From positions 1 through 64,000 of IMG/VR virus record IMGVR_UViG_3300030430_004105: a stretch of DNA of 64,000 bases; one strand, given 5' to 3'. Source of the stretch: a virus. Below, in pieces: positions 7,751-61,319 of this stretch. Each line of letters begins with the position of its first letter. Positions within the stretch are counted from its first letter, which is position 1. A program made the position numbers and the translations under genes. The notes under the pieces are model-generated. The model was not told the DNA's origin, searched no databases, and was given only the letters and a program-made list of their open reading frames with translations.

Positions 7751-7781
7751 AAGTCCTCCTTTTTGTCTAGAATATTGATCA

Positions 7782-44371: not shown

Positions 44372-44383
44372 TTTATTCTCCTT

Positions 44384-45319: not shown

Positions 45320-45346
45320 CGTTTTTCCTCATATATCTAATTATCT

Positions 45347-47656: not shown

Positions 47657-47659
47657 TCA

Positions 47660-47962
47660 TTATTTCTCCTTATCATCTTTTTGAATCATATCATAGATAT
47701 CATCCTTGTCTTCTCCGGAGAAACTGAACACAGAATCTTTCTTCTCATCTTTTTGGATCAATCCAGCAAGTTTGACTAACTGTTCATTTGATCTTTGAAG
47801 TGTCTCTACGTATTTTGCTGCAGCCAATGACACTTCTTTATGATTGTGTTCGCTTTGCCCTGCAATTACAATAAGATCGCTCAACAACTCTTGGGTTATC
47901 TCACGATCTTTTCTTATGTTTTCAACTGCTTCTTCTATAAATTTATTAAGCCTCTTAGACAT
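47660..47962 (-). CDS. Hypothetical protein
   Basis: 100-aa helical ORF coupled to the sigma gene. Confidence 0.6.
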   Translation of the reverse strand: MSKRLNKFIEEAVENIRKDREITQELLSDLIVIAGQSEHNHKEVSLAAAKYVETLQRSNEQLVKLAGLIQKDEKKDSVFSFSGEDKDDIYDMIQKDDKEK

Positions 47963-48651
47963 TATTCCTCACCATTCTCATACCTAGTTTTAAAATCAGA
48001 GTATTTCTCTCTCATCTTAGACAACTGAGAAACAATTTGCTTGGTGTTTAGTCCAGTTATCTCTCTCAGGTACAAGTAAATAGCCTTTTTGTTAAATATT
48101 TCAATCTTATCAGCATTATCAATAAGGGTATTGATAGCATCATATACTTTTCTTTCATTCGGGCGCATCGTGACAGATTCCCAAGACGCTATTTCTTCTT
48201 TCAAAAGCCTCATGAACTCCTGCCTCTCTCTGTTTTCGTGATAAACATCTTCTATGCCGGGCTCAAATCCATTTGCGACTTGCCCTTCTAGTGATGTCTC
48301 TCTTTGATTTTTCTTTTTATTCTTTTTTACTTGAGCGATAAACCAGTTTTTGGTAATCACTGAGAAATAAGAGAATGCTTTATGTCCTTTTTCGGGCTTG
48401 AATTTGTGCAAAATAGTTACCAACATAACCTTGCAGTCTTGTTGCAATTCGGAAATGTTTGGCAACGATGTAAATTTATATGTGTATACAATTTTGTCAA
48501 CCATCTCATCCAGTGCTGGATGTATTAGGGTTTCGTAAAGTTCAGATTTCCTCTTCAAATCTGTTTCTGGATTATTAAATTCAATAATCGCATCTTCATG
48601 CACTTTTGTGAAGTACATTCTTTTGGTTCTAGGCTTTCTCGTCTTCGCCAT
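47962..48651 (-). CDS. Phage RNA polymerase sigma factor-like protein
   Basis: Region-2-like ELQQDC...LHKFKPEKGHKAFSYFSVITKNWF (resembles T4 gp55); C-terminal HTH YLYLREITGLNTKQI; start MAKTRK with SD AGGAGG. Confidence 0.7.
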   Translation of the reverse strand: MAKTRKPRTKRMYFTKVHEDAIIEFNNPETDLKRKSELYETLIHPALDEMVDKIVYTYKFTSLPNISELQQDCKVMLVTILHKFKPEKGHKAFSYFSVITKNWFIAQVKKNKKKNQRETSLEGQVANGFEPGIEDVYHENRERQEFMRLLKEEIASWESVTMRPNERKVYDAINTLIDNADKIEIFNKKAIYLYLREITGLNTKQIVSQLSKMREKYSDFKTRYENGEE

Positions 48652-48940
48652 CGTTATCCTCCTGTAGATCATCTTCGAACACAACCATAACTTGAGAATA
48701 GTTTTCTATATCTCCTGCAAGCCTTTTCATATGCTCAACTAAGGATGAAATGGTTGGATCTCCATAAAAGGATTCGACTTTGTTAATAGCCCTTAGATGA
48801 GTGGCAAACTCAAGTAACTTTGATTTCAGTTCTAAAAACTGATCTTCAATGGAAATTAAGTTTCTTAAAAGTTTGTAAATATACCACCCCAAAAGAGCAT
48901 TGATAAGGATTGAAAGTCCTAAGATAATGTATAAAATCAT
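48629..48940 (-). CDS. Membrane-anchored hypothetical protein
   Basis: N-terminal TM MILYIILGLSILINALLGWYI. Confidence 0.6.
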   Translation of the reverse strand: MILYIILGLSILINALLGWYIYKLLRNLISIEDQFLELKSKLLEFATHLRAINKVESFYGDPTISSLVEHMKRLAGDIENYSQVMVVFEDDLQEDNDGEDEKA

Positions 48941-49188
48941 AATTTAAAATTCCTGTCAATATTCTTTTTGTACTCCTTTACTTCTTTTTTAGTCTCTTCG
49001 ATTGTACGATTTACAACATCGCCAACTTTTTGCTTAGGAGTATTGATTGTAACTTCCCCTAACAACGCAGGAATACGAACAGCCGAAGGAGCATCACAAA
49101 CATTACAATTCGTGTGCTCCTCAGTCATTCCATGCCAGACTTCATATTCGCTTTCACAAGCGTCACAGCGGTATGAATACTTAGGCAT
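48937..49188 (-). CDS. FmdB-family zinc-ribbon protein
   Basis: MPKYSYRCDAC...CNVC. Confidence 0.75.
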   Translation of the reverse strand: MPKYSYRCDACESEYEVWHGMTEEHTNCNVCDAPSAVRIPALLGEVTINTPKQKVGDVVNRTIEETKKEVKEYKKNIDRNFKL

Positions 49189-49415
49189 TATTGTACACTC
49201 GTCTCGATTGTCTCACCTTTTGAAAGACTATCAGAATTAGTCCTTAAGATGGGTGGATTAATCACAACAATGCCCTCAGTTGGGTGTACAGTCAACTTCA
49301 AGCCTTTAAGCACAGGCACGATATCAGTTTGATTTAGAAGACTATTTTGCAAAGCCATCATAATCGCTCCTAATGCTTGATCAGATAAATGTGTAGTTTG
49401 AACTTCAGTGCTCAT
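49188..49415 (-). CDS. Hypothetical protein
   Basis: 75 aa, SD AGGAG, directly after a promoter motif. Confidence 0.6.
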   Translation of the reverse strand: MSTEVQTTHLSDQALGAIMMALQNSLLNQTDIVPVLKGLKLTVHPTEGIVVINPPILRTNSDSLSKGETIETSVQ

Positions 49416-49434
49416 GTTTTTCTCCTTTTACTTA

Positions 49435-49463
49435 TTATACGATTCAGATATCGATTTTATTCA
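49435..49463 (-). promoter_or_regulatory. Putative promoter TGAATA-N16-CGTATAA
   Basis: TGAATA at 49463-49458 and CGTATAA at 49441-49435. Confidence 0.7.
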
Positions 49464-49890
49464 AATATTTTGTTACATAATCCGTACAAATGTAATCGTA
49501 CTTCTGTTCGTCAATATCCGGATATCTTTCTGGGAATAGAAACACAGTGTTTTTGCCACTAGTCTCTTTATTAGGGTATGCCCAGATATGCCCTTTAGAT
49601 GTTATTGTATAATCATCTTCTTGGTGCCAAAAACAATGTATTTCAGAAGCCAACATTCGCTCTAGAGCATCTTTGTTTTTAGCATGGCACCAAAGCCCTT
49701 CTTGCTTAAGGAAAGTCTCTTGGATTTGATATTTGGGACTGTCATGTCCTAACAAATATTTTTCATCGATATACCAAACATCTATTTCAACATGAAAACC
49801 AGAATCCAGCAATGCTTGGATCGCTGCTGGGTGGTTTTCTACGGTTGTATCTTCTCCTTCGGTATATGCTCTGTGAGAAATAATTATCAC
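49444..49890 (-). CDS. GDPD/PLC-like phosphodiesterase-fold protein
   Basis: IISHRA...ENHP...VEIDVW...LGHD...WCHAKN; GTG start overlaps the RLP stop. Confidence 0.65.
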   Translation of the reverse strand: MIIISHRAYTEGEDTTVENHPAAIQALLDSGFHVEIDVWYIDEKYLLGHDSPKYQIQETFLKQEGLWCHAKNKDALERMLASEIHCFWHQEDDYTITSKGHIWAYPNKETSGKNTVFLFPERYPDIDEQKYDYICTDYVTKYLNKIDI

Positions 49891-51077
49891 TCTGTTAATC
49901 CCCATTTTTCAATTGCGATGTGATATTCTTCGCCATATTCCTTGTCAATTGATTGCCTCATAGCCATCGCTCCGCTCTTGGATCCATTAGGGTGTCCGTG
50001 AATCGCTCCTCCGACATTAGCCATATAGTCCAATCCAAAACGCTTGTTGATGGCTTTTACAAGCCCAGCATGCATACCACAACTGAGGGCTGGCATTACA
50101 TTTCTATTATGAAGAACGTCCAAAGTATTCTTAAGTTCGTCTTCGTTGTCAGACATATACCCTCCCCACATTCCAGCGTGAATAAAATCAACTCCCATCA
50201 AGCCAGCAAGATCACAAATAACATCCCAAGAGATGTGATAGTCATGAGATTTATTAGTCAAAACTTTGTCTCCGCTTTTCTGAAAGTGTATGAACATAGG
50301 AAGATCCAACTCTCTGATCGATTTGTAAACTCCCAGTCCACTCCAAAAATTAATGTGTACTGCGTTTGCTCCAAGTTCATATACCCTCTTTACTCTATCG
50401 ATAACATGATGAGGATCACAATTTATACAAACTGCATAGACAACATTCTTATCCTTCAAATATTCCATAATCTTTGGAACCCTTTCTTCGATTGGGCAGC
50501 ATGCAGGATTAGACATGATCTCATCTTCTTTGATGAAATTGATTCCACCTTCTACCATTTCTTTAACCATCTCTAGCAAGACATCACTGTTGACACCAAT
50601 CTTAGGCTTCACGATCCCTCCAAATAGTGGTTTATCGTGAGCACCAGTAAAGTCTCTAATACCATCAATTCCATATTTCGGCTTCATGAAATAATTATCT
50701 TCTATATGCTGTGGAAAGTCCACTTCCAAAAGATGACATTTGGTAACAATATCGATATCCATTTGTCCTCCCATAAACTGGCACAGCAAATGTGAAACGC
50801 CATCAGACTCAAAGTCAGTGTTGGCAATAGGAAAGGCAATTGTTACCTCTCCCTCTTGTTTTGTTTTAAGTACTTCTTCGTTACCAATCACAAAACAAGA
50901 GTGATTTTCAAACAACTCATCTGTTTCCCAATGGTTTCGGACATTAGGGTTTCCAACACTCTGTCCTATGCTCAAACCCCATGCAGCATCTCTTAAAGTT
51001 TCATTAGAAGATAAAAAATATCTACATAAAATGTATTTCTCTCTATCTATCTCGTCTATTGTTCTAAAAATTTTCAT
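49887..51077 (-). CDS. RuBisCO-like protein (form IV, RLP)
   Basis: PKYGIDGIR, GGIVKPKIG, GGINFIKEDE, GVDFIHAG, PALSCG, NVGGAIHGHP; lacks several carboxylase residues. Confidence 0.88.
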   Translation of the reverse strand: MKIFRTIDEIDREKYILCRYFLSSNETLRDAAWGLSIGQSVGNPNVRNHWETDELFENHSCFVIGNEEVLKTKQEGEVTIAFPIANTDFESDGVSHLLCQFMGGQMDIDIVTKCHLLEVDFPQHIEDNYFMKPKYGIDGIRDFTGAHDKPLFGGIVKPKIGVNSDVLLEMVKEMVEGGINFIKEDEIMSNPACCPIEERVPKIMEYLKDKNVVYAVCINCDPHHVIDRVKRVYELGANAVHINFWSGLGVYKSIRELDLPMFIHFQKSGDKVLTNKSHDYHISWDVICDLAGLMGVDFIHAGMWGGYMSDNEDELKNTLDVLHNRNVMPALSCGMHAGLVKAINKRFGLDYMANVGGAIHGHPNGSKSGAMAMRQSIDKEYGEEYHIAIEKWGLTE

Positions 51078-51796
51078 AATTCCTCCAATTTTGTTAAAAA
51101 ATTATTTAGTTCTTCAGGAGTTCCCATTCCCCTCATTTCATACACTGGATAAGGTTTAACAACCCCTCCTCTTGAGTTTATTAATATATTATACACTGGG
51201 CATATATAAAACTCATTGTTAAATCTAACGTTTCTAGATATCATCTCTTCGGCACAAGAAACATACTCTGATCCTTTAGCCCAATAATACATTCCAACTG
51301 TTGCAAAGTTACTTATCACTTGCTTTTCGGCAACTTGTGTAATGTTTCCTGTATTATAGTCTACTCTTGAATACGAGTGCTTTGGGCTATCAGATAAGAA
51401 AAACGGTATGCAACCATCCAAACCTTTACAATAGTTCTGGAAGTGTTTAGGATCCCAATCAACCCATTGATCCGCATTTGCAATAAATAATGGCTCGTCA
51501 TTATCAATATACTCTTTGGCTAGCAATGTTGTACATGCAGCACCCTCAGTTAAGCCATCTATCTCAACTAAAACAGAATTTTTTACACAATTTCGCAAAT
51601 ACTCTTTCATCTTTGGGTATTTTTCCATGTGTTGTTTTTGGACTATGAAAATGTGTTCATTTTCAGGTAATCCAATATTTTCAATGACTCTTTGAATCAT
51701 TGGTTTTCCGGCTACATCTATTAAAGGTTTAGGATCTGAGTAACCTGCTTTAAAAAATCTAGATCCTGCTCCTGCTAATGGTATTAATACTTTCAT
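51074..51796 (-). CDS. Sugar-phosphate nucleotidyltransferase (GT-A fold)
   Basis: IPLAGAGSRF...PKPLI, TEGAACT, IANADQ, EFYICPVYN, MGTPEEL. Confidence 0.85.
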   Translation of the reverse strand: MKVLIPLAGAGSRFFKAGYSDPKPLIDVAGKPMIQRVIENIGLPENEHIFIVQKQHMEKYPKMKEYLRNCVKNSVLVEIDGLTEGAACTTLLAKEYIDNDEPLFIANADQWVDWDPKHFQNYCKGLDGCIPFFLSDSPKHSYSRVDYNTGNITQVAEKQVISNFATVGMYYWAKGSEYVSCAEEMISRNVRFNNEFYICPVYNILINSRGGVVKPYPVYEMRGMGTPEELNNFLTKLEEL

Positions 51797-51805
51797 TTTT
51801 TCTCC

Positions 51806-52549
51806 TTAAAGTTTGTATGCCCATCTTACCAATGGCACCATTCCATCTTCTTTATTTTTGTAATAATTGTCATATTTTTTTTGTATCATAAAGTTACCCA
51901 TGTCTTCGAATAACCCCAGTTCTCTTAAATGCCTAGCGGCAATCATATGGTTAGAATCTAGTCCGTATGTTTCTAAAATATCATAAATTCTAGTAAAATT
52001 ATACATATTATCGGAATTTGCAACAAACAATAGATCCCCAACTTCATAGTAATGAGACTCTCTATCGCAGCAAGAACCACGACATATTTCTGGATTGTAC
52101 ATATGTATTGGATCTGAGCCATTGTGATAAAATCTTTTCATGTCTAATCTGGAATCTTCAAAGTCAATCTTTTCTTGCAATGCTAAATCAAATCTAGATA
52201 ATAATACGATATCGTACTTTATATTATGTTTTTGTTCATACTTTCTCATAACATCTAAAGATCGTTTGATAGAATACCAATTGCTTTTTATGGCAAATTG
52301 TCTAGTACTAAGATTAGAGCCAAAATCAATTTGATCTTGAAAAATACATCCTTTTGGATTATACATAGAAACCAACTCATCTTTAAATTGTCTATCCCAG
52401 CAATGAAAAAACACATCAACATCATTATGATCTAACAAGTTCTCTTTCCAATGTTTAAACCCAATCTTTGCCGCATTCATATTCTGCCGTCCTAAAACAT
52501 ACTTTTTATTATTTCCTACTTTTCCTCTCATACATAATGCTATTTTCAT
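51806..52549 (-). CDS. Putative glycosyltransferase-like protein
   Basis: MKIALCMRG...DVDVFFHCWD...YDIVLLSRFDL...GDLLF pattern seen in polysaccharide loci. Confidence 0.5.
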   Translation of the reverse strand: MKIALCMRGKVGNNKKYVLGRQNMNAAKIGFKHWKENLLDHNDVDVFFHCWDRQFKDELVSMYNPKGCIFQDQIDFGSNLSTRQFAIKSNWYSIKRSLDVMRKYEQKHNIKYDIVLLSRFDLALQEKIDFEDSRLDMKRFYHNGSDPIHMYNPEICRGSCCDRESHYYEVGDLLFVANSDNMYNFTRIYDILETYGLDSNHMIAARHLRELGLFEDMGNFMIQKKYDNYYKNKEDGMVPLVRWAYKL

Positions 52550-52552
52550 CTC

Positions 52553-53437
52553 TTACTCCCTTATATATAACCTAGATGCATACTTCACTAATTCACTTAA
52601 TTCATTCCATTTAGAATATCGATACGATTTATAATTGAATATCGGAACTGGGTTGTAACTATATTGCAACTGCAGAATCAGTCTTGGTTTAGTCTTAGGC
52701 ACAGTGCCTCTATGAATTCCATATGTGTCAGCAAACCAACTAGTTCCCGATTCTCCTGAAATAGTCTTTGCCAGATCACGACTGAAGTATTTGAAAACTT
52801 GCTCGTCTGAATATCTCACAATCTCAAACATGTCTTTTGGGAGATCGTCTTCTGTATGGCTCCTCTTTACATACACCTGCTCTCCTTCGCCCAGTTCCAC
52901 ATCACTAAGTAACACAAAAAATTTCACAAACTTATAATCGTCAGCATCTCTATGGAACAACTGCATGTTAATTGGCTCGCTCACATCTTGAGGAAAACTC
53001 CACATTGGAAGAACCAATGAAAGAGTTGCAGGGCATCCCAAATAACTAGATGCCATTTTTGTCAACCTTTCGTTAGTAATTAATTCGATCATATTAGGGC
53101 ATAATAGATTATCTTTTATCGTGTGTCTCCCAAGTTTAATGTTCTTAGGTATATTTGCCAAATCAAATTTTTGATGGCTACCATAGAAATCATAACAAGG
53201 TTTTGTTAAAAAATATTTGTACATATCCTGTGATTGATCTTGATCAAGAACGTTATCGATTATCATGACACCGTTTTTTCTCAACTCTTCACAGTCCATG
53301 TTAAAATCAAATTTGTACTCAGTCACAAGTCTGTTACAAGTTTCCATAGATCTGGAATGTCTTGTTGCAAGATCCAGAGTTGCTCTCTGTTCTTCCCACT
53401 CAGGAGTAGGAAACTTGAGTATCCAATTTTCAAACAT
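52553..53437 (-). CDS. PhyH-like Fe(II)/2-oxoglutarate dioxygenase
   Basis: FHRD...VKFFVLLSDV...YVKRSH...DTYGIHRG...RLILQ (HxD...H...R). Confidence 0.8.
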   Translation of the reverse strand: MFENWILKFPTPEWEEQRATLDLATRHSRSMETCNRLVTEYKFDFNMDCEELRKNGVMIIDNVLDQDQSQDMYKYFLTKPCYDFYGSHQKFDLANIPKNIKLGRHTIKDNLLCPNMIELITNERLTKMASSYLGCPATLSLVLPMWSFPQDVSEPINMQLFHRDADDYKFVKFFVLLSDVELGEGEQVYVKRSHTEDDLPKDMFEIVRYSDEQVFKYFSRDLAKTISGESGTSWFADTYGIHRGTVPKTKPRLILQLQYSYNPVPIFNYKSYRYSKWNELSELVKYASRLYIRE

Positions 53438-54026
53438 GTTTTATTTCCTTTAAGCAATTTTCGTGAAAGAAGTACACAGTGTCTTGTTTGTGCTTCAAAG
53501 GTAGTGTTTCTTCTGGGTGTAAGTTCATGAGTTTACCTCTCATTACTTTTGAAACCATCTCATGACATATAAAAATAATTTTTTGTCCCTCATATTTATC
53601 TAAAACAGATGATATTCTCTCACTTAATAATTCGTAACTCTCTCCCATCGGCACAATGTAGTGCCAATAATTACCTTTTTTGTACCTTCTGTCCAAAAAC
53701 CCCGGAAAGTCTCTTTCTATCTCTTCTTCTGTCTTTCCTTCCCAAAGCCCAAAGCAGTGTTCCTTTAAGTTTTCTTCTGTTATACACTGCATAAAATCAA
53801 CACCTAGAGATTCACATATTATGCTAGCATATTGCTGACATCTCCATTGAGGTGATGTAATAAATTTATATTCTCCTATATCTTTTCCTTCAAACTCCCT
53901 TTTGATCAAATCTGCTGTTCTTTTTGCTTGATCAATTCCTTTAATAGTCAGAGGAGAGTCTTTTTGTCCCTGCTTTCTTTTAGCCAAATTCCACACAGTC
54001 TGTCCATGTCTAATAATATAAATCAT
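53430..54026 (-). CDS. Histidine phosphatase (phosphoglycerate mutase family)
   Basis: IRHGQTVWN, SPQWRCQQ, LKEHCFGLWEG, GES, ICHE. Confidence 0.88.
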   Translation of the reverse strand: MIYIIRHGQTVWNLAKRKQGQKDSPLTIKGIDQAKRTADLIKREFEGKDIGEYKFITSPQWRCQQYASIICESLGVDFMQCITEENLKEHCFGLWEGKTEEEIERDFPGFLDRRYKKGNYWHYIVPMGESYELLSERISSVLDKYEGQKIIFICHEMVSKVMRGKLMNLHPEETLPLKHKQDTVYFFHENCLKEIKHV

Positions 54027-54865
54027 ACGTACTTCATATCCTTGAGAAAATCCAATTCCTCTTTATGAAACTCAGTCAGTCCAGCATTATTCTCTAGAAT
54101 CAATTTATCTATCGTTTCATTCATTTCTCTGTACTTTTCTGGTGTCAGAGCGCAACCTAAATGGTGGATACCCCAATCTAAAGAGAGAGAAAAGTGTCTT
54201 TCAATCATTCTGGCGCCTTGGAGAGTTGCTAAAATAGATGGTGCATATCCAATTTCATGCCCAGAATACCCTATCTTTATATTATCACTTTCAAATTTGT
54301 TCCGAAGGTGTGTTATATAAGTGATATTTGACTTGCCATCTGGTGTTGGGTAAATCGAAACTGTATGAAGCAAGAATGCTTTAAGTTTAAATCTATTAAT
54401 TTTATTAACTAACTTTGAAACAAACTCATCAGACTTTCCACCCAAACTTATTATTAGTGGCTTATCCTCCTTAGCGCACAAAGTCATAACCTTATCAACT
54501 AATTCTGTTTTACCAGCATCCATACTAGCAACTTTGTAGAAAGGAGGATCAAAAGTTTTAATGAATTCAAGCCCCTCTTCGTCATGTACAGTGCAGAACC
54601 ATCTTATTCCTTTTGAATTGCAGTAATTTGCTAAATATTCAAAATCTTCTTTACTTAACTCCAAAGATCCTCGATATGTCTTAAAATCAAAATTTCTCCA
54701 TTTTTTACCATCGTCTTTGTAATATTTTTTAACATTCTTGAATTTAAGTTTAATTAGATTTGCCCCACCGGATACGGCTTCGTCAATCATTTTTTGAGCA
54801 ATTTTAACCATACCTAGGTGGTTAATACTCAACTCTGCCACCATAATAGGTTTTTCAATTACCAT
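54023..54865 (-). CDS. NeuB-family PEP-dependent ulosonic acid synthase, no SAF domain
   Basis: VAELSINHLG, KVASMD, HTVSIYPT, GYSGHE, IERHFSL. Confidence 0.85.
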   Translation of the reverse strand: MVIEKPIMVAELSINHLGMVKIAQKMIDEAVSGGANLIKLKFKNVKKYYKDDGKKWRNFDFKTYRGSLELSKEDFEYLANYCNSKGIRWFCTVHDEEGLEFIKTFDPPFYKVASMDAGKTELVDKVMTLCAKEDKPLIISLGGKSDEFVSKLVNKINRFKLKAFLLHTVSIYPTPDGKSNITYITHLRNKFESDNIKIGYSGHEIGYAPSILATLQGARMIERHFSLSLDWGIHHLGCALTPEKYREMNETIDKLILENNAGLTEFHKEELDFLKDMKYV

Positions 54866-55509
54866 CTTCCCATTTCCTCCACTATTTGTTCAAATGTTTT
54901 TTCCGTTTCATTAATCAAGAAACGAACTCTTTTTTCTCTTTCTAATTGTTCCAGTGCAATCGATTTAAATCTATCTTTAAGATCAGATCTTACAATTATA
55001 ACACCATCTCTACTAGCAAACGAGTAATCATTTGGGGTTATCTTCACCCCCTCTATTTCAATATCAATCTGATATCTCGTCAAAGCCCAATAGTCTAAAG
55101 CATCAATTGGATTTTCGTCTTTACAAAACACAGGAAAATCTAGTTGATCAATAATATCGATATCTCTAACTACTCCATCTGTCACAAAACCTTTTGCTCC
55201 GAGTTTCTTATATATTAAAGAAGTTATATCACCACTATGTGCTACTTTGTCGTCATTCGCTTGTAAATAGACAATTGGATTATTCGCAAACATACTTGGC
55301 TTATACATATCAAGCCTTATATTGTCTAGTTTTGAATAATCTACTTTCCAATCTCGTACCACTTCTCCATAAGTAGTGAAACAATCTCCCTGAATAATCG
55401 AGGTATAGCCACACTTGGGCTTTATATTAATATAAAAATCTTTATATTGTTCACCCATCAGCCTTAACGAATCATATACTATACCCATATAAATATCATT
55501 TGGTAACAT
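54859..55509 (-). CDS. RraA/HMG-aldolase family protein
   Basis: AHSGDITS...GAKGFVTDGVVRDI...FPVF...IEGVKITPND...DGVIIV. Confidence 0.8.
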   Translation of the reverse strand: MLPNDIYMGIVYDSLRLMGEQYKDFYINIKPKCGYTSIIQGDCFTTYGEVVRDWKVDYSKLDNIRLDMYKPSMFANNPIVYLQANDDKVAHSGDITSLIYKKLGAKGFVTDGVVRDIDIIDQLDFPVFCKDENPIDALDYWALTRYQIDIEIEGVKITPNDYSFASRDGVIIVRSDLKDRFKSIALEQLEREKRVRFLINETEKTFEQIVEEMGRW

Positions 55510-56164
55510 TCATCAACCTCTCAATTAATTCTAGATCTTCATTGACATTTATATCTAAAGATTCAATTTTTGAAACCCCTATCATCATTGGGCTCTCTCC
55601 AACTCTTGTCTTGTTTTTAAGTAGAGAATCTACAGTTATGCCGTAAAGTCCGTGTGTCTCCATTTTCAAGATATCTAATTCAAAACTGTTAGGCAGTTCT
55701 TTGGTTGAAAAATTATAAGATTTCCCATCTTTCCAGAAATACTCTTGAACATCTACAGTCGTGAAAAAAGAATCGTGATGAGGAAGTCCGTGGTTAACAA
55801 ATCTTTCAATGCAAAAATCTATAGTTTCAGATCTTAACAATGGTGAAGTGCAAAATGTCTGCAATAGTATGTCACATTCGTCAACGCTGTGAAGTCCGTA
55901 TATCATCATTTCATTGGCACCTATGTCATTTGTTGCGAGACTAGGGTGTCTTTTGATTAATTTCAATCCTCTAGAAAAAAGCGACTTTACACTAGCAATG
56001 ATATCGTCACTTTCAGTATCTAGATAAACGTTGTCTATGTTTTCACATTTGAGTGCTTTTTCACATGCAAGAAAAACCAATGTCTTTCCATTGATTTCGT
56101 ACAAATTTTTATTTTTTATCCTTTTGCTAGTTCCTTTAGCAGGGATAATTAAATTGATTTTCAT
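55496..56164 (-). CDS. NeuA-family acylneuraminate cytidylyltransferase
   Basis: IIPAKGTSKRIKNKN, FCTSPLL, ETHGLY, SLDINVNEDL. Confidence 0.85.
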   Translation of the reverse strand: MKINLIIPAKGTSKRIKNKNLYEINGKTLVFLACEKALKCENIDNVYLDTESDDIIASVKSLFSRGLKLIKRHPSLATNDIGANEMMIYGLHSVDECDILLQTFCTSPLLRSETIDFCIERFVNHGLPHHDSFFTTVDVQEYFWKDGKSYNFSTKELPNSFELDILKMETHGLYGITVDSLLKNKTRVGESPMMIGVSKIESLDINVNEDLELIERLMNVTK

Positions 56165-56976
56165 ATTTTAAATCTCCGTATTTTTTTAGATAAAAAGCAT
56201 TTGTCTGATTCATATGCTTCTATTGAGTTTCCTAGTTTTTCAAAATACTCTGCAAACACTCTAGACAGATTAATCGAATCTAGCATTTCAGAGTTGTATG
56301 GCTTTCCACAAGGATTTATAGTTTTATTTCTAGATTCTTCATGATAAAAATGCTCAACAAAGCCTTCAATGCTGGGATCTGCATAATCCCACCCTACTGT
56401 TTTTACCTTATCAAACCCTAAATGCAAAGCAAAAAATAACACATTTTCATACATTATACCTGCTCCCCACTCTCTCATTAGTCCTGTTTTTTCAAAAGTA
56501 TAATTCTCTAAACCATCAAAATCTTCAAAATATTGTTTTCTAGATAAAGGCATTCTAGTAGGTGTGCCATTACCAGTTGTGTCTCTGTTTATTATTTGTC
56601 CAGTAACTCTAGAACAAATATCAACTTGTTGATTTTTCCAATACGCTGCTCTAGCAATAACCTCACTATTCCAATCAGATGATCCAATATAAAAACTTTC
56701 TTCTTTGTCGGGATAGTAGACATAGTTATTTGTATTAAAAAAATGAAAATCAATATAGTCTTTAAAAGGAAAATAACTTTGCTTGATAGTCATCAAACAA
56801 TTGTTTTTCAGTTCTAGTTTTAACTTTTCTTTATCAATGTCTTTTAGAGATGGGCCGCATCCTAAAATATAACACGTTTGTCCCTTGAATTTGTCTTTAA
56901 AGAAAGACAGCCTCTCTTCATAAGAAGAAAGACTTTTTGCTTCAGCGATTATACTTTTTATATCTTTTTTGTTCAC
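56161..56976 (-). CDS. Maf/DUF115-like (sialyltransferase-type) transferase
   Basis: FKDKFKGQTCYILGCGPSL...ALHLGFDKVKTVGWDY...HFY. Confidence 0.7.
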   Translation of the reverse strand: MNKKDIKSIIAEAKSLSSYEERLSFFKDKFKGQTCYILGCGPSLKDIDKEKLKLELKNNCLMTIKQSYFPFKDYIDFHFFNTNNYVYYPDKEESFYIGSSDWNSEVIARAAYWKNQQVDICSRVTGQIINRDTTGNGTPTRMPLSRKQYFEDFDGLENYTFEKTGLMREWGAGIMYENVLFFALHLGFDKVKTVGWDYADPSIEGFVEHFYHEESRNKTINPCGKPYNSEMLDSINLSRVFAEYFEKLGNSIEAYESDKCFLSKKIRRFKI

Positions 56977-56993
56977 ATAAACCTCTTTATATA

Positions 56994-57022
56994 TTATACG
57001 TTTAAGTTTGTCATTTTATTCA
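56994..57022 (-). promoter_or_regulatory. Putative promoter TGAATA-N16-CGTATAA
   Basis: TGAATA at 57022-57017 and CGTATAA at 57000-56994, overlapping the gmd 3' end. Confidence 0.7.
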
Positions 57023-57998
57023 AATTAATTTGCTCTCTTCTTAGATCTTTCTCGTACATCTCCATTGCAAGTTCTTCAAAATCATATTCAGGCACCCAGC
57101 CCAATGTCTTCATCATCTTGGATGGATCTCCCCATAACTTTGGCACTTCGCAAGGACGATAAAACTTAGGATCAATGACTACGTGATCTTTGATGTCCAG
57201 CCCAGCATAGTCAAAAACATACTCTAAAAATTCTTGAACTGAGTTAGTTTTACCAGTTGCTAGCACATAATCATCTGCTACATCGTGCTGAAGCATCATC
57301 CACATTCCTTTAACATAATCAGCAGCATGTCCCCAGTCTCTTTGGGCAGACAAGTTTCCAAGCCTTAGTTCATCTTGTAAGCCCAACTTGATTCTTGCAG
57401 CGGCTTTGGTAATCTTTCTGGTTACAAAGTTTTCTCCTCGTCTTGGAGATTCATGATTGAAAAGAATACCAGAGCATGCGTAAATCCCATAAGACTTTCT
57501 ATAAGTGCTTACCATATGGTGTGCTGCTAATTTAGCACATGCATAAGGCGAGACAGGAGAAAAGTGGGTATCAAGTCCTTGCGGACACTGAGTATTATCA
57601 CCAAACATCTCGCTCGTAGATGCCTGATAGAACTTGCAGGATGGCTTCTGGAGCCTTATTGCCTCTAGGGCATACAAACACCCCATCATATTGATCTCAG
57701 TCGTACTAACAGGCGTTTTAAAGGACGTACCGACATGTGATTGAGCAGCCAAATTATAGTATTCATCTGGTTGGTATTCAGATATCAAGCGATAAAGTGA
57801 AGAAGAATCTGTTACATCTGCCTCTTCTAAGATAAAATTACCGTCATCAAGTAAATGAGTTATGTTCTGGCATTTGTTTTCAAAGTCTGAAACTGTTCTT
57901 CGATATGTGCCTATAACCTTGTAGCCCTTATCAATCAGAAGATCTGAAAGATAAGAGCCGTCTTGTCCAGTTACTCCAGTAATTATTGCAGTTTTCAT
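56994..57998 (-). CDS. gmd: GDP-mannose 4,6-dehydratase
   Basis: ITGVTGQDGSYL, YNLAAQSHV, FYQASTSEMFG, SPYACAK, LFNHESPRRGENFVTRKI, RDWGHA. Confidence 0.95.
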   Translation of the reverse strand: MKTAIITGVTGQDGSYLSDLLIDKGYKVIGTYRRTVSDFENKCQNITHLLDDGNFILEEADVTDSSSLYRLISEYQPDEYYNLAAQSHVGTSFKTPVSTTEINMMGCLYALEAIRLQKPSCKFYQASTSEMFGDNTQCPQGLDTHFSPVSPYACAKLAAHHMVSTYRKSYGIYACSGILFNHESPRRGENFVTRKITKAAARIKLGLQDELRLGNLSAQRDWGHAADYVKGMWMMLQHDVADDYVLATGKTNSVQEFLEYVFDYAGLDIKDHVVIDPKFYRPCEVPKLWGDPSKMMKTLGWVPEYDFEELAMEMYEKDLRREQINLNKMTNLNV

Positions 57999-59263
57999 AA
58001 TAAAAACTCCTCTTCATCTGGGCTGTCAAATTGTATTCCTAGTTCTTCGTTAAAACGATTAAACCAATACTGCTCACCTTCATAAGAATCTCGAAGTTGC
58101 TCAGCCATTTCTGTCCATTTGTCAATATTTTCATAAACATCTCTCATTTTACTTTTAGCATCAGCATCATCAATATAAGCCCAACTAGATTCAGCATGAA
58201 GAACTCCATCCCAAACTGCATTTTGAGGAACCTGTCTCAGTTCACACTTAACAGCAGCAAACTTTTTCTTGTATGTTGTGATTTTGCCCCTAGTTTTTCC
58301 ACCTTTGAGTTTTCCGGGAGGGTTAATGTCCTCTTTGATGGCTAAAAAGTCTAAGTGTCCACTCCAATCTGTTGCTATAACAGGAAGCCCATTACAAGAA
58401 GCCTCATATAAAGGAAGTCCAAAACCTTCACCATGCGTAAAAGACACAACAGCCTTTACTTTAGGATGATTATATAAACCTTGCATTTGTTCGTCAGATA
58501 AATTTCCATGAAGTAGATTTATAGAACATTTCCACCCTCCTTCTTTTGCTGTTTTCGAAACTTGCTCAAATTGTTTTTTAATGTTATGGTAGTCCATAAC
58601 AGAATCGTTTGCCTGATGAACTTTGAAAAGCAAGCCAACTTCTTCATTCTTGAACTCTTCAAGAAAATTATGTAAAACAGCATCTACATTTTTTCGTGGG
58701 CCTAACTGAGCAACACATAGAAAGTTGAAATCATGTCTAAGGTTTAGATCCAGTTCTTCTACTTCGATATCTCTCTTAGGAAAACCAACGAACGACATAG
58801 GTGTATCGCATTTGTATTCAGGTATCTTTTGTCCAGTCTTGGTATCAGTTGCTTCATAAGAAGTGTCTCTATAAACTTCCATGCTGTGTTTAGAAATTGT
58901 GATAATTTTATCAACCTCATTTCCCTTTACCAACCATTCACCAGCAACTCTGTTAGTTTCAATACCTGCTGTATATCCAATATCATGAGGAGATAAACGC
59001 TTCCATTCGTTAGGTATTGTACACTGCACGGTTGCATCATATTGCCCATTGTTCTGCATATACAAAACTGTTTTTTGAAGCAACGCATCAATCAGTTTTC
59101 TTTCCTGATCGTCTCTCCAAATCCATCCTGATCTTCCCCAACTAATATTGTGTACATATAAATCAACTGCGGGGTTTGACATCAATGCCCTAAGAGCAAA
59201 TCTGCCCATTTCACCATATCCGGAACGTGAAAGTACCGGTGCCACTAATAATATTTTTTTCAT
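57995..59263 (-). CDS. Glycosyltransferase, GT-B (GT4-like)
   Basis: SRSGYG, RKNV, HGEGFGLPLYEA...PVIATDWSGHLDF. Confidence 0.85.
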   Translation of the reverse strand: MKKILLVAPVLSRSGYGEMGRFALRALMSNPAVDLYVHNISWGRSGWIWRDDQERKLIDALLQKTVLYMQNNGQYDATVQCTIPNEWKRLSPHDIGYTAGIETNRVAGEWLVKGNEVDKIITISKHSMEVYRDTSYEATDTKTGQKIPEYKCDTPMSFVGFPKRDIEVEELDLNLRHDFNFLCVAQLGPRKNVDAVLHNFLEEFKNEEVGLLFKVHQANDSVMDYHNIKKQFEQVSKTAKEGGWKCSINLLHGNLSDEQMQGLYNHPKVKAVVSFTHGEGFGLPLYEASCNGLPVIATDWSGHLDFLAIKEDINPPGKLKGGKTRGKITTYKKKFAAVKCELRQVPQNAVWDGVLHAESSWAYIDDADAKSKMRDVYENIDKWTEMAEQLRDSYEGEQYWFNRFNEELGIQFDSPDEEEFLL

Positions 59264-60525
59264 GCTACCTCCAATAGTCTATAGTTCAAATGCTTTCTGG
59301 TTTCCCAAGAACCTTCTTCTTCATATATTCGCTGCATCAAATCAACCCAAGTTTTTTCGAAAACTTCAAAACTGTAATTTTTTATCACATGTTCTCTACC
59401 TGCTCTTCCTAGGGCATCTCGATACTCTTGATCAGCCATGTACATATCTCTTAGGGCGGACGAAACCTTCTTACCATTTAGTCGATCTTCGTATATGTAA
59501 GGCACTTCTTGAGATCCAATAATCGCCTTAGAATCAGGCTCCAGTCCAATCCCGAACCAAGTCTCTCCGTCTGTAACCTGTTCTTGTAGTCCGCCTGTCA
59601 TATTCACAATTATTGGTGTCCCACAAGAAAGAGATTCAAGCGTTGCCAGTCCAAATCCTTCAGCATCTGATATGTTGATCGTACAGTCTGCTAGATTATA
59701 AAACATTGCTAGATTTTCCATTTGAACTTTGTTAGTAGAAAACAAAATCTGTCCATCAATTAATCCTAAGTTTTGAACAATAGCATTGAGATCTTGCCCA
59801 TATCCATCTTTGGGATCTGTGTGCATGATTAATGATGCTTTATCATGTCCAACTTGATCTAGAAAGTCTTTAAACCAATAAATCAAAGAACCGCTCTGTT
59901 TTCTTCTAGCATTTCGATTGTTCCAAAAAAACAAAAACTTTCCTTTTGAATCGTACTGTTCATCAAACTGTGCTCTAAACTCTTCTATCTGTTCTTTTGG
60001 CAAAGGCTTAAAAAAGTTAGAATCAACAGCATGCGGCACATACTGCTCTTTCACATCAGGTGCAACATTTTGCACAATATCACTTGTAACTTTTGATATA
60101 GTTGCAATAAAATCGTTAGATTCGTAAAACCTCTGGTTATATTTTGGTAGTGGGTAGTTGTCCCACACATGATAATATACCATGGGGATTAAAGAACGAA
60201 TCTCTGCCTCTATTTCCCAAAGCCAGCCATAAAAACGAGGATCAGTCATAAAATACAAAATATCAGGACGTTCATTTCTGATAATAGATCTTACGATATC
60301 CTGTGTGCCATAGCCATCGACAGGGAAGATTTTCCATCTTTCACCCCATTGTTCCGTGATCTGTGGCTTATGATCCGGATGCTTGATTGCCCCACCAAGA
60401 CTGACTACATCAAATTTATCAGACTTAAGCAGGGCTTCTATAATATATTTAGTTTGAGTTCCGACACCCGATGGCGATAGTGGGTGATCAGATATAGTCA
60501 AAACTTTAATTCTTTTTTCCGACAT
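59260..60525 (-). CDS. Glycosyltransferase, GT-B (GT4-like)
   Basis: Start MSEKRIK (SD AGGAG); SGVGTQ, NRNARRKQ, AEGFGLATLES...TPIIVNMTGGLQEQ. Confidence 0.85.
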   Translation of the reverse strand: MSEKRIKVLTISDHPLSPSGVGTQTKYIIEALLKSDKFDVVSLGGAIKHPDHKPQITEQWGERWKIFPVDGYGTQDIVRSIIRNERPDILYFMTDPRFYGWLWEIEAEIRSLIPMVYYHVWDNYPLPKYNQRFYESNDFIATISKVTSDIVQNVAPDVKEQYVPHAVDSNFFKPLPKEQIEEFRAQFDEQYDSKGKFLFFWNNRNARRKQSGSLIYWFKDFLDQVGHDKASLIMHTDPKDGYGQDLNAIVQNLGLIDGQILFSTNKVQMENLAMFYNLADCTINISDAEGFGLATLESLSCGTPIIVNMTGGLQEQVTDGETWFGIGLEPDSKAIIGSQEVPYIYEDRLNGKKVSSALRDMYMADQEYRDALGRAGREHVIKNYSFEVFEKTWVDLMQRIYEEEGSWETRKHLNYRLLEVA

Positions 60526-60539
60526 TTCTTCTCCTTTTG

Positions 60540-61319
60540 TTACGGACAATGTTTGGTTCCCTTGAACTCACAATTAGCACAAGAAAGCCTATTCTTAATA
60601 TAAACACCATTATCAATATTGTAAAGCGCTCTTGACAATAATTGCATAGCATTTTCTGTTCTTCTCTTTCCAGAAGTTACTTTAAATAATTCTACTTCGT
60701 TAGTCTTGGCGGTTCGCTTTAGAAGCCCAAAGTGACATTCAATGTTTTTTGGATCAATGCCATGCTTCATTGCATAGTAATGCTTATAAAAAATTAATTG
60801 ATAGACAACCATTTTGTCTGATCTTCTTTTAGCATCCCATCCCCATGAACAAGACTTCCAATCCAGAATATGATAAGTCTCGCCTTTTTTGACAACCAAG
60901 TCGATATATCCTTTAAATTTGAAAGGATTCCCATCATAGTGGGAAATATCCTCAAAAATCTCTTCTTCGCACTTAATAATCTCATAATTCTCACCAAAGT
61001 AAGAATCTAACTTTACTTTATACTTGTCTACCAAGTTTTCTCCTTGAGATCTGAACTGATCAAAATGATTGTCTTTGATTTCTTCAATCAACAAGCCTCT
61101 TTCTTTTCCAAATGCTCTACCGAAATAGTCTTTTAATTCTGTCTCATCGATCTCATTTTCTAAATGTTTCTCAATTGTCTCATGCAAAGCAGAGCCAAAA
61201 GCAGTGTAAATGTTTCCAGAAAATGATCCCTCAACCTTATCGATTGAAGCCAGTTTGTGATAGAATGGGCATTTAACCCAGTTTTTAAGTTGTGAAAAAG
61301 AAATATATTTGTTAGTCAT
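60540..61319 (-). CDS. Cas4/RecB-like PD-(D/E)XK exonuclease
   Basis: SFSQL..CP, FGSALHE, GYIDLV, ILDWKS, QLIFY, CANC...CP (four-Cys Fe-S pattern). Confidence 0.85.
   Translation of the reverse strand: MTNKYISFSQLKNWVKCPFYHKLASIDKVEGSFSGNIYTAFGSALHETIEKHLENEIDETELKDYFGRAFGKERGLLIEEIKDNHFDQFRSQGENLVDKYKVKLDSYFGENYEIIKCEEEIFEDISHYDGNPFKFKGYIDLVVKKGETYHILDWKSCSWGWDAKRRSDKMVVYQLIFYKHYYAMKHGIDPKNIECHFGLLKRTAKTNEVELFKVTSGKRRTENAMQLLSRALYNIDNGVYIKNRLSCANCEFKGTKHCP

What the first reader, a model, noticed from the sequence alone, without database searches (positions are those of the whole stretch)
49444..52549. Phage RuBisCO-like protein coupled to nucleotide activation: an unassigned biosynthetic module
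Seen: NTP-transferase, RLP and GDPD-like genes overlap stop-to-start, preceded by a transferase-like gene. By manual alignment to form I numbering, the RLP keeps K175/K177 (KPK), the carbamate/Mg motif K201-x-D203-E204 (KEDE), H327, S379 and G403/G404, but E60, N123 (GGQMD), H294/R295 (HFQK) and loop-6 K334 (GGY) are replaced. Established: RLPs do enolate chemistry on sugar phosphates (methionine-salvage enolase/isomerase, oxo-isoapionate decarboxylase), mostly in salvage or catabolism. Inference: here it acts anabolically, making an unusual (isomerised, branched or shortened) sugar/polyol phosphate that is NDP-activated and transferred to virion protein, DNA or host surface. It is not CO2 fixation.
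Basis: partly seen in the sequence, partly recalled or inferred. Interest (0 to 1): 0.86.

Follow-up and report, generated by a model that had tools for sequence, protein, structure and literature searches.

The report
Phage RuBisCO-like enzyme in sugar-activation cassette
A large marine tailed phage carries an intact RuBisCO relative that cannot fix CO2 and that travels with, and in relatives is fused to, a nucleotide-attaching enzyme in surface-sugar gene clusters, so it probably prepares an unusual activated building block, a job never tested for this enzyme family.

Summary
Four minus-strand genes lie at the stated coordinates: a GT-A-like transferase, an NTP-transferase, a RuBisCO-like protein (RLP) and a 153-aa miniature GDPD-like phosphodiesterase.

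- **Not a carboxylase or MtnW.** The RLP keeps the KPK and K-E-D-E carbamate/Mg motifs, H327, S379 and G403/G404. It lacks E60, N123, the H294/R295 dyad and K334. It scores below every NCBIfam cut-off. It falls in a clade split from MtnW and true RuBisCOs with SH-aLRT 100.
- **Linkage is conserved.** An NTP-transferase homologue lies beside the RLP in 45 of 45 viral loci and 45 of 49 cellular loci. The cellular loci include SAR11, Legionella, Nonomuraea, Azospirillum and DPANN.
- **Fusions.** These exist as NTPt-RLP, RLP-NTPt and GDPD-RLP.
- **Swappable slot.** In cyanophages without an RLP, the same NTP-transferase is fused to DHBP synthase or a HAD enzyme. In Legionella a LicD phosphotransferase is adjacent.

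Best reading: the RLP enolises a ketose phosphate into an unusual unit that is nucleotide-activated for a glycan. The chemistry is untested.

Phage RLPs were published by Jaffe et al. with function unclear. This scan has already reported the same cassette many times on other DNA (114 notes, at least 75 genomes).

The parts
51806..52549 (-). 247-aa GT-A-like transferase (g247), directly upstream of the NTP-transferase.
   Evidence: ORF. No Pfam hit. The AF2 model has pLDDT 75.5. Foldseek PDB top hits are GT6/GT-A glycosyltransferases, E 7e-6, prob 1.0, TMq 0.41-0.47. R119 and D121 are invariant in alignment A4. Relatives are found by BLASTP in 9 of 45 viral loci, or 12 of 45 once the DUF7796-like cluster f5 is added. 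A 25%-identical relative sits directly upstream of the NTPt-DHBP synthase gene of phage S-SKS1.
51074..51796 (-). NTP-transferase (NTPt), 240 aa; its stop overlaps the RLP start by 4 nt.
   Evidence: PF00483 at 42 bits against a cut-off of 21.2. phrog_3980 at 2.6e-61, matching positions 3-244 of a 495-position profile. Best PDB hit is 4evw, 'NDP-sugar pyrophosphorylase', 8.7e-18 over the full length. A homologue is present in 45 of 45 viral and 45 of 49 cellular RLP loci. It is fused to the RLP in 8 of the 120 listed clusters, and in the reverse order in P0122.
49887..51077 (-). RuBisCO-like protein (RLP), 396 aa, non-carboxylating.
   Evidence: PF00016 at 1.7e-33. It scores below all NCBIfam cut-offs; the best is MtnW NF007095 at 167.6 against 409. 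Best PDB hit is 2oej at 1.1e-36. Motif table. Clade separation with SH-aLRT 100.
49444..49905 (-). 153-aa miniature GDPD-like phosphodiesterase (g153); overlaps the RLP stop by 19 nt.
   Evidence: phrog_34507 at 9e-22. Alignment A2 has invariant H11, R12, E23, N24, E40, D42, G53, H54 and others. The profile hits GDPD 7e0v at E 0.0012. AF2 pLDDT is 92.7. The best Foldseek hits are GDPDs (7e0v, 2o55, 4oec, 3no3), though none reaches E 0.001. Present in 39 of 45 viral and 22 of 49 cellular loci. Fused in front of an RLP in P0154. Also present in the RLP-less cyanophage S-8S56.
52553..60549 (-). Context, variable between relatives: the rest of the glycan island.
   Evidence: Gene content, from Pfam and NCBIfam and ORFs: a 294-aa unknown, His-phosphatase, NeuB, RraA-like aldolase, CMP-type cytidylyltransferase, MptE/Maf-like protein, an SDR/GMD-like protein and two 420-430-aa proteins that read as glycosyltransferases. 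The last three (GMD-like, GT422, GT429) are named from their sequence and from BLAST relatives only and were not scanned here. Few of these genes recur in the 45 viral loci.

Best explanation
The four genes form a precursor-activation cassette inside a phage glycan island.

**Proposed steps.**
1. Inferred: the RLP uses its retained carbamylated-lysine/Mg2+ centre and Lys pair to enolise a ketose phosphate. A pentulose phosphate is the likeliest type. It has lost the residues needed for carboxylation, hydration and C-C cleavage. It therefore releases an isomerised, epimerised or otherwise rearranged ketose or keto-polyol phosphate.
2. Supported by fusions but not assayed: the NTP-transferase takes the neighbouring step and joins an NMP to that phosphate to give an NDP-linked unit.
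3. Inferred: a transferase places the unit on a glycan. Here that would be the GT-A-like g247. In Legionella it would be a LicD-type phosphotransferase.
4. Inferred: the miniature GDPD-like enzyme makes, trims or cyclises a phosphodiester belonging to the same unit.

**Origin and target.** The cassette is of cellular origin and is found in the surface-glycan loci of SAR11, Legionellales and others. Phages probably carry it to alter the infected cell's surface or their own virion glycans. The acceptor is unknown.
For: **Linkage.**
- An NTPt homologue lies within the locus in 45 of 45 viral loci and 45 of 49 cellular loci. Three of the four cellular misses are short contigs or contig ends. Gene order and strand vary between loci.

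**Fusions.**
- NTPt-RLP in 8 of the 120 listed clusters, collinear with the window's two genes.
- RLP-NTPt in P0122.
- g153-RLP in P0154.

**Swappable slot.**
- GenBank phages have no RLP match. In 22 records they do carry the same NTPt family.
- In S-SKS1 it is fused to DHBP synthase, PF00926 at 5.4e-65, with a g247-like gene directly upstream.
- In S-8S56 it is fused to a HAD_2 domain and followed by a g153 homologue, HMM E 2e-57.
- From general knowledge (recalled, not from a call), DHBP synthase works on ribulose 5-phosphate by Mg-enediol chemistry and yields a primary-alcohol phosphate.

**Context.**
- Neighbours are SDR epimerases, TylF/FkbM methyltransferases, a DegT aminotransferase and glycosyltransferases.
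- A SAR11 locus flanked by pheT and lepA carries GT17, GT61, RmlD-like and DUF4422 genes.
- LicD (4.7e-44) is divergently adjacent in 4 Legionellales loci.

**Active site.**
- The enolisation set is kept and the carboxylation set is lost.
- Clade-invariant residues include Q39, Q266 and Y307.

**Precedent.**
- CTP plus fructose-6-phosphate gives CDP-6-fructose, which is reduced to CDP-6-glucitol for a capsule containing glucitol-6-phosphate (PMC10918830, abstract read).
Against: - No enzyme assay or glycan structure exists for any member of this clade.
- All characterised RLPs are salvage or catabolic enzymes.
- The NTPt's structurally solved relatives are mostly glycosyl-1-phosphate enzymes such as GMPP, RmlA and GalU. 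The HAD_2 fusion could be a beta-phosphoglucomutase-type mutase. Both points fit a classical NDP-aldose better than an NDP-polyol.
- The order of the RLP and NTPt steps is not determined by fusions.
- The role of g153 is unexplained, and it is missing from 27 of 49 cellular loci.
- A small cupin is present, separate or fused, in 42 of 45 viral loci but absent from this window. The window's cassette may therefore be a reduced version.
- One cellular locus, L048, has the RLP with no NTPt within 8 kb.
- LicD is confined to Legionellales.
Confidence: 0.55

Rival explanations
1. Same cassette, reversed order. The NTP-transferase first nucleotidylates a common ketose phosphate, as in CDP-6-fructose or CDP-xylulose. 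The RLP then isomerises or epimerises the NDP-linked open-chain ketose, with the diphosphate sitting in the retained glycine-amide phosphate site.
For: - Fusions occur in both orders, so neither reaction order is excluded.
- CDP-6-fructose is further processed while nucleotide-linked (PMC10918830 abstract).
- The second phosphate site is remodelled, with D at the H298 position and K/R at 295 by MAFFT. This could accommodate a nucleotide.
Against: - In RLP-less phages the slot is filled by DHBP synthase or HAD enzymes. Both act on free sugar phosphates, which suggests the slot feeds the NTPt.
- No RLP is known to act on a nucleotide-linked substrate (recalled).
Confidence: 0.2
2. The trio processes a nucleotide-derived small molecule, such as an ADP-ribose-like or cyclic-phosphate signal or another nucleotide product, for counter-defence or nucleotide salvage rather than for a glycan.
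For: - The setting is a phage.
- g153 has a phosphodiesterase fold.
- A TIR-RLP fusion (P0198) exists in another RLP clade.
Against: - The cassette sits in chromosomal glycan loci of SAR11 next to glycosyltransferases.
- It sits next to LicD in Legionella.
- Neighbours in 45 viral loci are sugar-modifying enzymes.
- No defence genes were seen nearby. This was not tested against PADLOC.
Confidence: 0.06
3. It is a methionine-salvage or 5-deoxy-sugar-salvage RLP, an MtnW-type enolase or a Rhodospirillum-type isomerase, carried as an auxiliary metabolic gene.
For: The best single NCBIfam and PDB hits are MtnW: NF007095 at 3.1e-49 and 2oej at 1.1e-36.
Against: - The scores are far below the cut-offs, 167.6 against 409 and 137.1 against 513.6.
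- A true MtnW, P0188, scores 652 and lies in the other half of the tree, split at SH-aLRT 100.
- The MtnW base Lys at the N123 position is absent.
- No other salvage genes are linked.
Confidence: 0.03
4. It is a working CO2-fixing RuBisCO, or alternatively a decayed non-catalytic remnant.
For: RuBisCO fold, with the KPK and K-E-D-E motifs kept.
Against: - E60, N123, the H294/R295 dyad and K334 are not conserved, and the form I-III model cut-offs are not met. This argues against a carboxylase.
- 27 invariant columns across 26 sequences, down to 28% identity, including the metal and carbamate residues, argue against decay.
Confidence: 0.02

Closest known systems
'Form IV-like' RuBisCO-related proteins of phages and Beckwithbacteria (Jaffe, Castelle, Dupont, Banfield; Mol Biol Evol 36:435; PMC6389311; passages read)
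   Same: This is the same kind of sequence. The paper describes about 80 non-redundant divergent RLPs on IMG/VR phage contigs, some from Myoviridae, grouping with Beckwithbacteria and lacking key residues. Here a Beckwithbacteria MAG contig (L055, 56% identity) falls inside the same clade.
   Different: - The paper leaves the function 'unclear' and frames the genes as possible carbon-metabolism or gene-transfer agents.
- The passages I read do not mention the linkage to the nucleotidyltransferase, cupin and GDPD-like genes, the fusions, or the SAR11/Legionella/actinomycete carriers.
- Its supplementary figure S1 could not be opened and may show neighbouring genes.
MtnW/YkrW, 2,3-diketo-5-methylthiopentyl-1-phosphate enolase (PDB 2oej, 2zvi)
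   Same: Same fold. It is the best pairwise hit. It shares the K175 and K201/D203/E204 equivalents and uses enolisation without carboxylation.
   Different: - The Lys at the N123 position is absent here.
- K177 is kept here but not in MtnW (alignment).
- The window's RLP scores below the model cut-offs.
- It sits in a separate clade.
- Its context is glycan biosynthesis, not salvage.
LicC/LicD, TarI/TarJ and CDP-6-fructose/CDP-6-glucitol type pathways (PMC10918830 abstract; Lic and Tar recalled)
   Same: The working logic is the same: a phosphate ester of an open-chain unit is joined to CMP by a small NTP-transferase-fold enzyme and then transferred as a phospho-unit. LicD is adjacent in Legionella.
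   Different: - The upstream enzyme there is a kinase or reductase; here it is an RLP.
- The nucleotide and the unit are unknown here.
- The window itself has no LicD.
NTP-transferase fused to DHBP synthase (Synechococcus phage S-SKS1) or to a HAD_2 domain (S-8S56, S-CAM9 and others)
   Same: The same NTPt family, 30-51% identical to the window's, sits in glycan islands of marine myophages with g247-like or g153-like neighbours.
   Different: A different enzyme occupies the RLP's slot. None of these has been characterised, as far as the annotations show.
Bifunctional type II phosphomannose isomerase/GDP-mannose pyrophosphorylase (NTP-transferase plus cupin; recalled)
   Same: In 42 of 45 viral relatives the NTPt is followed by, or fused to, a roughly 106-aa cupin. 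The cupin's best PDB hit is a 113-aa 'mannose-6-phosphate isomerase', E 0.0038.
   Different: The cupin match is weak. The window lacks the cupin altogether.

Membership tests
RuBisCO large-chain superfamily (PF00016) | A match to the catalytic-domain model above the gathering score. | tested here: met
   116.6 bits against a cut-off of 30.1, over residues 137-378.
Bona fide RuBisCO (forms I-III) | The full set of catalytic and substrate residues, including E60, N123, H294, R295 and K334 (numbering recalled), and curated model cut-offs. | tested here: not met
   - E60 position is G38.
- N123 position is G104 or Q105.
- K334 is Y307.
- The H294/R295 dyad is not conserved.
- TIGR03326 scores 165.6 against 497, and NF003252 scores 155.4 against 438.
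MtnW/YkrW enolase | The equivalog model cut-off; a Lys base at the N123 position; placement in the MtnW clade. | tested here: not met
   - 167.6 against 409 and 137.1 against 513.6.
- No Lys at that position.
- The control P0188 passes at 652 bits and lies across an SH-aLRT 100 branch.
OiaX 3-oxo-isoapionate-4-phosphate decarboxylase | The equivalog model cut-off. | tested here: not met
   123.3 against 700.
Jaffe et al. 'Form IV-like' phage/Beckwithbacteria clade | Groups with phage and Beckwithbacteria sequences, apart from the other RLPs. | tested here: met
   A clade of 26 representatives is split from 78 others. The Beckwithbacteria MAG L055 lies within the clade. Identity with the paper's own sequences could not be checked because its supplements are closed.
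NTP_transferase (PF00483) | The Pfam gathering score. | tested here: met
   42 bits against 21.2. No NCBIfam equivalog cut-off is met, so the substrate is not assigned.
Glycerophosphodiester phosphodiesterase (GDPD, PF03009) | A Pfam match; the HR, EN, ExD and HD catalytic/metal motifs; a full TIM barrel of about 230-250 aa. | tested here: inconclusive
   - No Pfam hit at E 0.01.
- The motifs are invariant in 33 sequences.
- The profile hits GDPD 7e0v at E 0.0012, over the first 52 positions only.
- The best fold hits are GDPDs, at E 1.6e-3 and TMq 0.58, with none reaching E 0.001.
- The protein is only 153 aa.
GT-A fold glycosyltransferases (for g247) | A Rossmann-like GT-A fold with a DxD-type motif. 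| tested here: inconclusive
   - Foldseek top hits are GT6 enzymes at E 7e-6, with TMq only 0.41-0.47, on a model of pLDDT 75.5.
- R119 and D121 are invariant.
- No Pfam hit.

The most novel reading that the evidence does not exclude
This RLP clade does carbon-skeleton or redox-neutral rearrangement chemistry on a pentulose phosphate, comparable in outcome to DHBP synthase. It would produce a previously unknown keto-polyol phosphate. That unit is nucleotide-activated and displayed as a phosphodiester-linked, teichoic-acid-like decoration on the surface glycans of SAR11, Legionellales and DPANN cells, and on cells or virions remodelled by large phages. That would make it the first biosynthetic, anabolic role for the RuBisCO fold outside CO2 fixation, operating in the ocean's most abundant bacteria and their viruses.
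Probability: 0.2. Interest if true: 0.85.

Novelty: new variant of a known kind. Interest (0 to 1): 0.64.

Why it matters
Every characterised RuBisCO-like protein works in salvage or catabolism. An RLP clade that is repeatedly fused to a nucleotidyltransferase and embedded in surface-glycan loci would extend the fold to anabolic glycan-precursor synthesis.

It could also point to an unknown surface decoration in SAR11, Legionellales, DPANN/CPR organisms and many large aquatic phages. Such decorations bear on phage receptor masking and host range in the ocean.

The question can be tested directly. Natural fusion proteins exist for expression, and cultured carriers exist for genetics: Azospirillum oleiclasticum, Nonomuraea rosea, three Legionella species and a Pelagibacter isolate.

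Tried and rejected
**CO2 fixation.** Rejected on residues and model scores.

**Methionine salvage.** Rejected on scores, the tree and context.

**A phage-only invention.** Rejected. 49 loci in species-representative genomes carry it. With 5 outgroup rows the basal branches are cellular. This rests on SH-aLRT only, with long outgroup branches, so the root is tentative.

**Searches that found nothing.**
- GenBank phages have no RLP match and no DNA match to 44000-60000. The window's own record may be hidden from those searches.
- The cupin is not in the window (tblastn, best E 0.044).
- LicD is not in any of the 45 viral loci. The query was a single Legionella LicD, which is a weak test.
- Longer proteins containing g153 numbered only 3. 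One carries a methyltransferase domain and two have unknown partners that are not NTPt.
- Pfam at E 1 gave nothing for g247 or the 294-aa protein.

**Literature.** Seven searches found only Jaffe et al. for phage RLPs, and nothing linking an RLP to a nucleotidyltransferase or to glycan synthesis. The held library lacks most subscription journals.

**Not run.**
- No complex prediction, because I do not claim binding.
- No read mapping.
- No PADLOC scan.

**Correction.** Recounting the table gives 22 of 49.


Full report
**What is there.**
- The window belongs to an IMG/VR virus record of 83,218 bases that CheckV rates 45% complete.
- It carries a T4-type baseplate wedge protein, SbcCD-like nucleases and a late sigma factor.
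- Its wedge protein is at most 34% identical to that of any GenBank phage. The closest are Microcystis phage Mel-JY01 and the Flavobacterium 'immuto' phages.
- On the minus strand lie g247 (51806-52549), the NTP-transferase (51074-51796), the RLP (49887-51077) and g153 (49444-49905).
- NTPt and RLP overlap by 4 nt, and RLP and g153 by 19 nt. g247 ends 9 nt before NTPt.
- Upstream is a variable glycan island. Pfam and NCBIfam identify the His-phosphatase, NeuB, RraA-like aldolase, CMP-type cytidylyltransferase and Maf-like genes. The 294-aa protein has no hit. The GMD-like SDR and the two transferase-like proteins were read from sequence only.

**The RLP.**
- Pfam places it in the RuBisCO large-chain family at 1.7e-33.
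- It scores far below every NCBIfam equivalog: MtnW 167.6 against 409, form III 165.6 against 497, OiaX 123.3 against 700.
- Its best solved relative is the Geobacillus MtnW 2oej, at 1.1e-36.
- I made a MAFFT table of 106 superfamily members. The rows were those of the 150 best representatives from the exhaustive search that are 330-500 aa long, plus five close homologues and the window.
- In that table the window and its clade keep VKPK, IKEDE, H300, LSCG and GGxIHGHP. By recalled spinach numbering these are the K175/K177, K201/D203/E204, H327, S379 and G403/G404 positions.
- The E60 position is G38, followed by an invariant Q39. T65/W66 are N43/P44. K334 is the invariant Y307.
- Two positions depend on the alignment. 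N123 is G104 by MAFFT but Q105 by the HMMER alignment to MtnW.
- The H294/R295 dyad is the invariant Q266 plus K/R267 by MAFFT. The pairwise HMMER alignment instead puts H264 at the His.
- H264 is not conserved in the clade. The basal member P0138 reads PIHVQRGG where form III proteins read PxHxHRAM, which favours the MAFFT reading.
- Either way the carboxylation, hydration and cleavage residues are gone, while the enolisation core is kept.
- Across 26 clade members, down to 28% identity, 27 columns are invariant. The gene is therefore under selection as an enzyme.

**Phylogeny.**
- An IQ-TREE quick tree (LG+G4, 104 rows after dropping two partial ones) puts the 26 clade members on one side of a branch with SH-aLRT 100.
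- MtnW-type rows sit deep in the other half.
- The labels were checked. P0188 passes the MtnW cut-off at 652 bits, and P0159 passes the RuBisCO subfamily cut-off at 449.5 against 438.

**Linkage.**
- The RLP has more than 2600 homologues at E 1e-5. The best 120 listed are all 65-96% identical and mostly from marine metagenomes, on contigs of up to 193 kb.
- Eight of those 120 are 634-651-aa proteins carrying PF00483 plus PF00016. They align collinearly with the window's NTPt and RLP.
- P0122 has the reverse order, RLP then NTPt.
- P0154 has a g153-like domain, 45% identical, in front of an RLP.
- In 45 IMG/VR loci a BLASTP survey of six-frame ORFs found an NTPt homologue in 45 of 45 and g153 in 39 of 45.
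- Of the six g153 misses, three loci end at the RLP. Two end before the distance at which the sister locus L033 carries g153. Only L035 has room and lacks it.
- Order and strand vary between loci.
- Other neighbours change from locus to locus but are all sugar-modifying: SDR epimerase/dehydratase in 16 loci, TylF and FkbM methyltransferases, a DegT aminotransferase, and a DUF7796-like family related to g247.
- A roughly 106-aa ORF sits between NTPt and RLP in 26 of the 45 loci. A long NTPt that may include it occurs in 16 more. Only L001-L003, the window's nearest relatives, lack it, and the window lacks it too.
- That ORF has an HYH...E cupin signature and weakly matches small cupins, including a 113-aa 'mannose-6-phosphate isomerase' at E 0.0038.

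**Not phage-only.**
- A scan of one genome per prokaryote species returned 49 loci.
- They include a complete Pelagibacter chromosome at 61% identity, many SAR11 single-cell genomes, a Verrucomicrobiae chromosome, Legionella maceachernii, L. nautarum and L. drozanskii, Nonomuraea rosea, Azospirillum oleiclasticum, Turneriella, Woesearchaeota/Nanoarchaeia and a Beckwithbacteria MAG.
- NTPt is adjacent in 45 of 49, g153 in 22 of 49 and the cupin in 15 of 49.
- No homologue of the window's three tested non-glycan phage genes (late sigma factor g240sig, g769, g311) was found in any of these loci.
- The SAR11 locus L067 begins right after pheT and lepA. It then runs GT17, g153, NTPt-like, RLP, NTPt, DUF7796-like, GT61, RmlD-like and DUF4422.
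- In Legionella a LicD-family phosphotransferase (4.7e-44) is divergently adjacent to RLP-NTPt. LicD is present in 4 of 49 cellular loci and 0 of 45 viral loci.
- In a tree of 85 rows rooted on five outgroup sequences, the basal branches are cellular and all 36 viral rows fall in one crown clade, SH-aLRT 99, together with 17 cellular contigs.
- The outgroup branches are long, so this rooting is tentative.

**The slot is swappable.**
- A lead from earlier notes of this scan prompted a search of GenBank phages with the NTPt. 22 records matched, 19 of them Synechococcus myophages.
- None of those records has an RLP match.
- In S-SKS1 the NTPt, 29.7% identical, is the N-terminal half of a 475-aa protein whose C-terminal half is DHBP synthase, PF00926 at 5.4e-65. 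A g247-like gene lies directly upstream, and a transaldolase-family gene and a C-methyltransferase lie nearby.
- In S-8S56 the NTPt, 51% identical, is fused behind a HAD_2 domain. It is followed by a 242-aa unknown, a second HAD_2 protein and a clear g153 homologue, HMM E 2e-57.
- The frame of g247-like, NTPt and g153-like genes therefore persists while the sugar-phosphate enzyme changes between RLP, DHBP synthase and HAD.

**The other two genes.**
- g153 has invariant HR, EN, ExD and GHD motifs. Its profile hits a GDPD at E 0.0012.
- It has a confident model whose best fold hits are GDPDs, although none reaches E 0.001.
- At 153 aa it is a miniature of that barrel. The Atlas clusters nearest to it are 85-100% viral.
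- g247 folds as a GT-A-like transferase with moderate confidence.

**Reading.**
- Shown: an intact, selected, non-carboxylating RLP; near-universal linkage and repeated fusion with one nucleotidyltransferase family; glycan-locus context in cells and phages; replacement of the RLP by sugar-phosphate enzymes in sister cassettes.
- Inferred: the RLP enolises a ketose phosphate and hands a rearranged unit to the NTPt, or takes it from the NTPt.
- Inferred: the unit may be an open-chain phosphate ester that is transferred as a phospho-unit. The hints are the DHBP synthase product, LicD, the GDPD fold and the CDP-6-fructose precedent (PMC10918830, abstract).
- Against that specific version: the NTPt's solved relatives are mostly glycosyl-1-phosphate enzymes, and a HAD_2 partner could be a mutase.
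- The acceptor (host surface, virion or other) is unknown.

**Novelty.**
- Jaffe et al. (PMC6389311, passages read) reported about 80 phage RLPs grouping with Beckwithbacteria and left the function open.
- Seven full-text searches found nothing on the linkage or on a glycan role.
- Within this scan the same cassette has been noted many times on other DNA, in 114 notes from at least 75 genomes, with the same conclusions.
- This window adds a reduced, cupin-less version beside a sialic-acid-like gene set.

Noticed in passing
window 18717-34232 (-) and 37922-44371 (-): Two giant ORFs of 5171 aa and 2149 aa lie in the structural region near the baseplate genes. Neither was characterised here.
   Followed up: no
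window 53430-56976 (-): A sialic-acid-like gene set: a 280-aa NeuB-family synthase, an RraA-like aldolase, a CMP-type cytidylyltransferase, a His-phosphatase and an MptE/Maf-like protein. It rarely recurs in the 45 viral RLP loci.
   Followed up: partly
P0198, P0160, P0212 (metagenome proteins, not in the window): Other RuBisCO-superfamily fusions turned up. P0198 is a TIR domain fused to an RLP. P0160 and P0212 are IF-2B-family (ribose-1,5-bisphosphate isomerase-like) domains fused to a RuBisCO with its N domain.
   Followed up: no
L098 (Synechococcus phage S-8S56, OQ504984.1) 7043-7498: The g153-like ORF (HMM E 2e-57) appears under-called in the record. The annotated CDS there is only 7187-7501, labelled 'hypothetical protein'.
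   Followed up: partly
L097 (Synechococcus phage S-SKS1, HQ633071.1) 5001-6428: The gene annotated only as DHBP synthase is in fact an NTP-transferase fused to DHBP synthase. A transaldolase-family gene lies at 7730-8539.
   Followed up: partly
L048 (uncultured bacterium MAG, CAZXLK010000001.1): This is the only long cellular locus with the RLP (65% identical) but no NTPt, g153 or cupin within 8 kb.
   Followed up: no
L063-L070 (SAR11 single-cell genomes): These loci carry two NTPt-like genes flanking a 419-aa RLP, plus g153 and a DUF7796-like gene. They form a second SAR11 RLP type, distinct from the L050-L054 type.
   Followed up: partly
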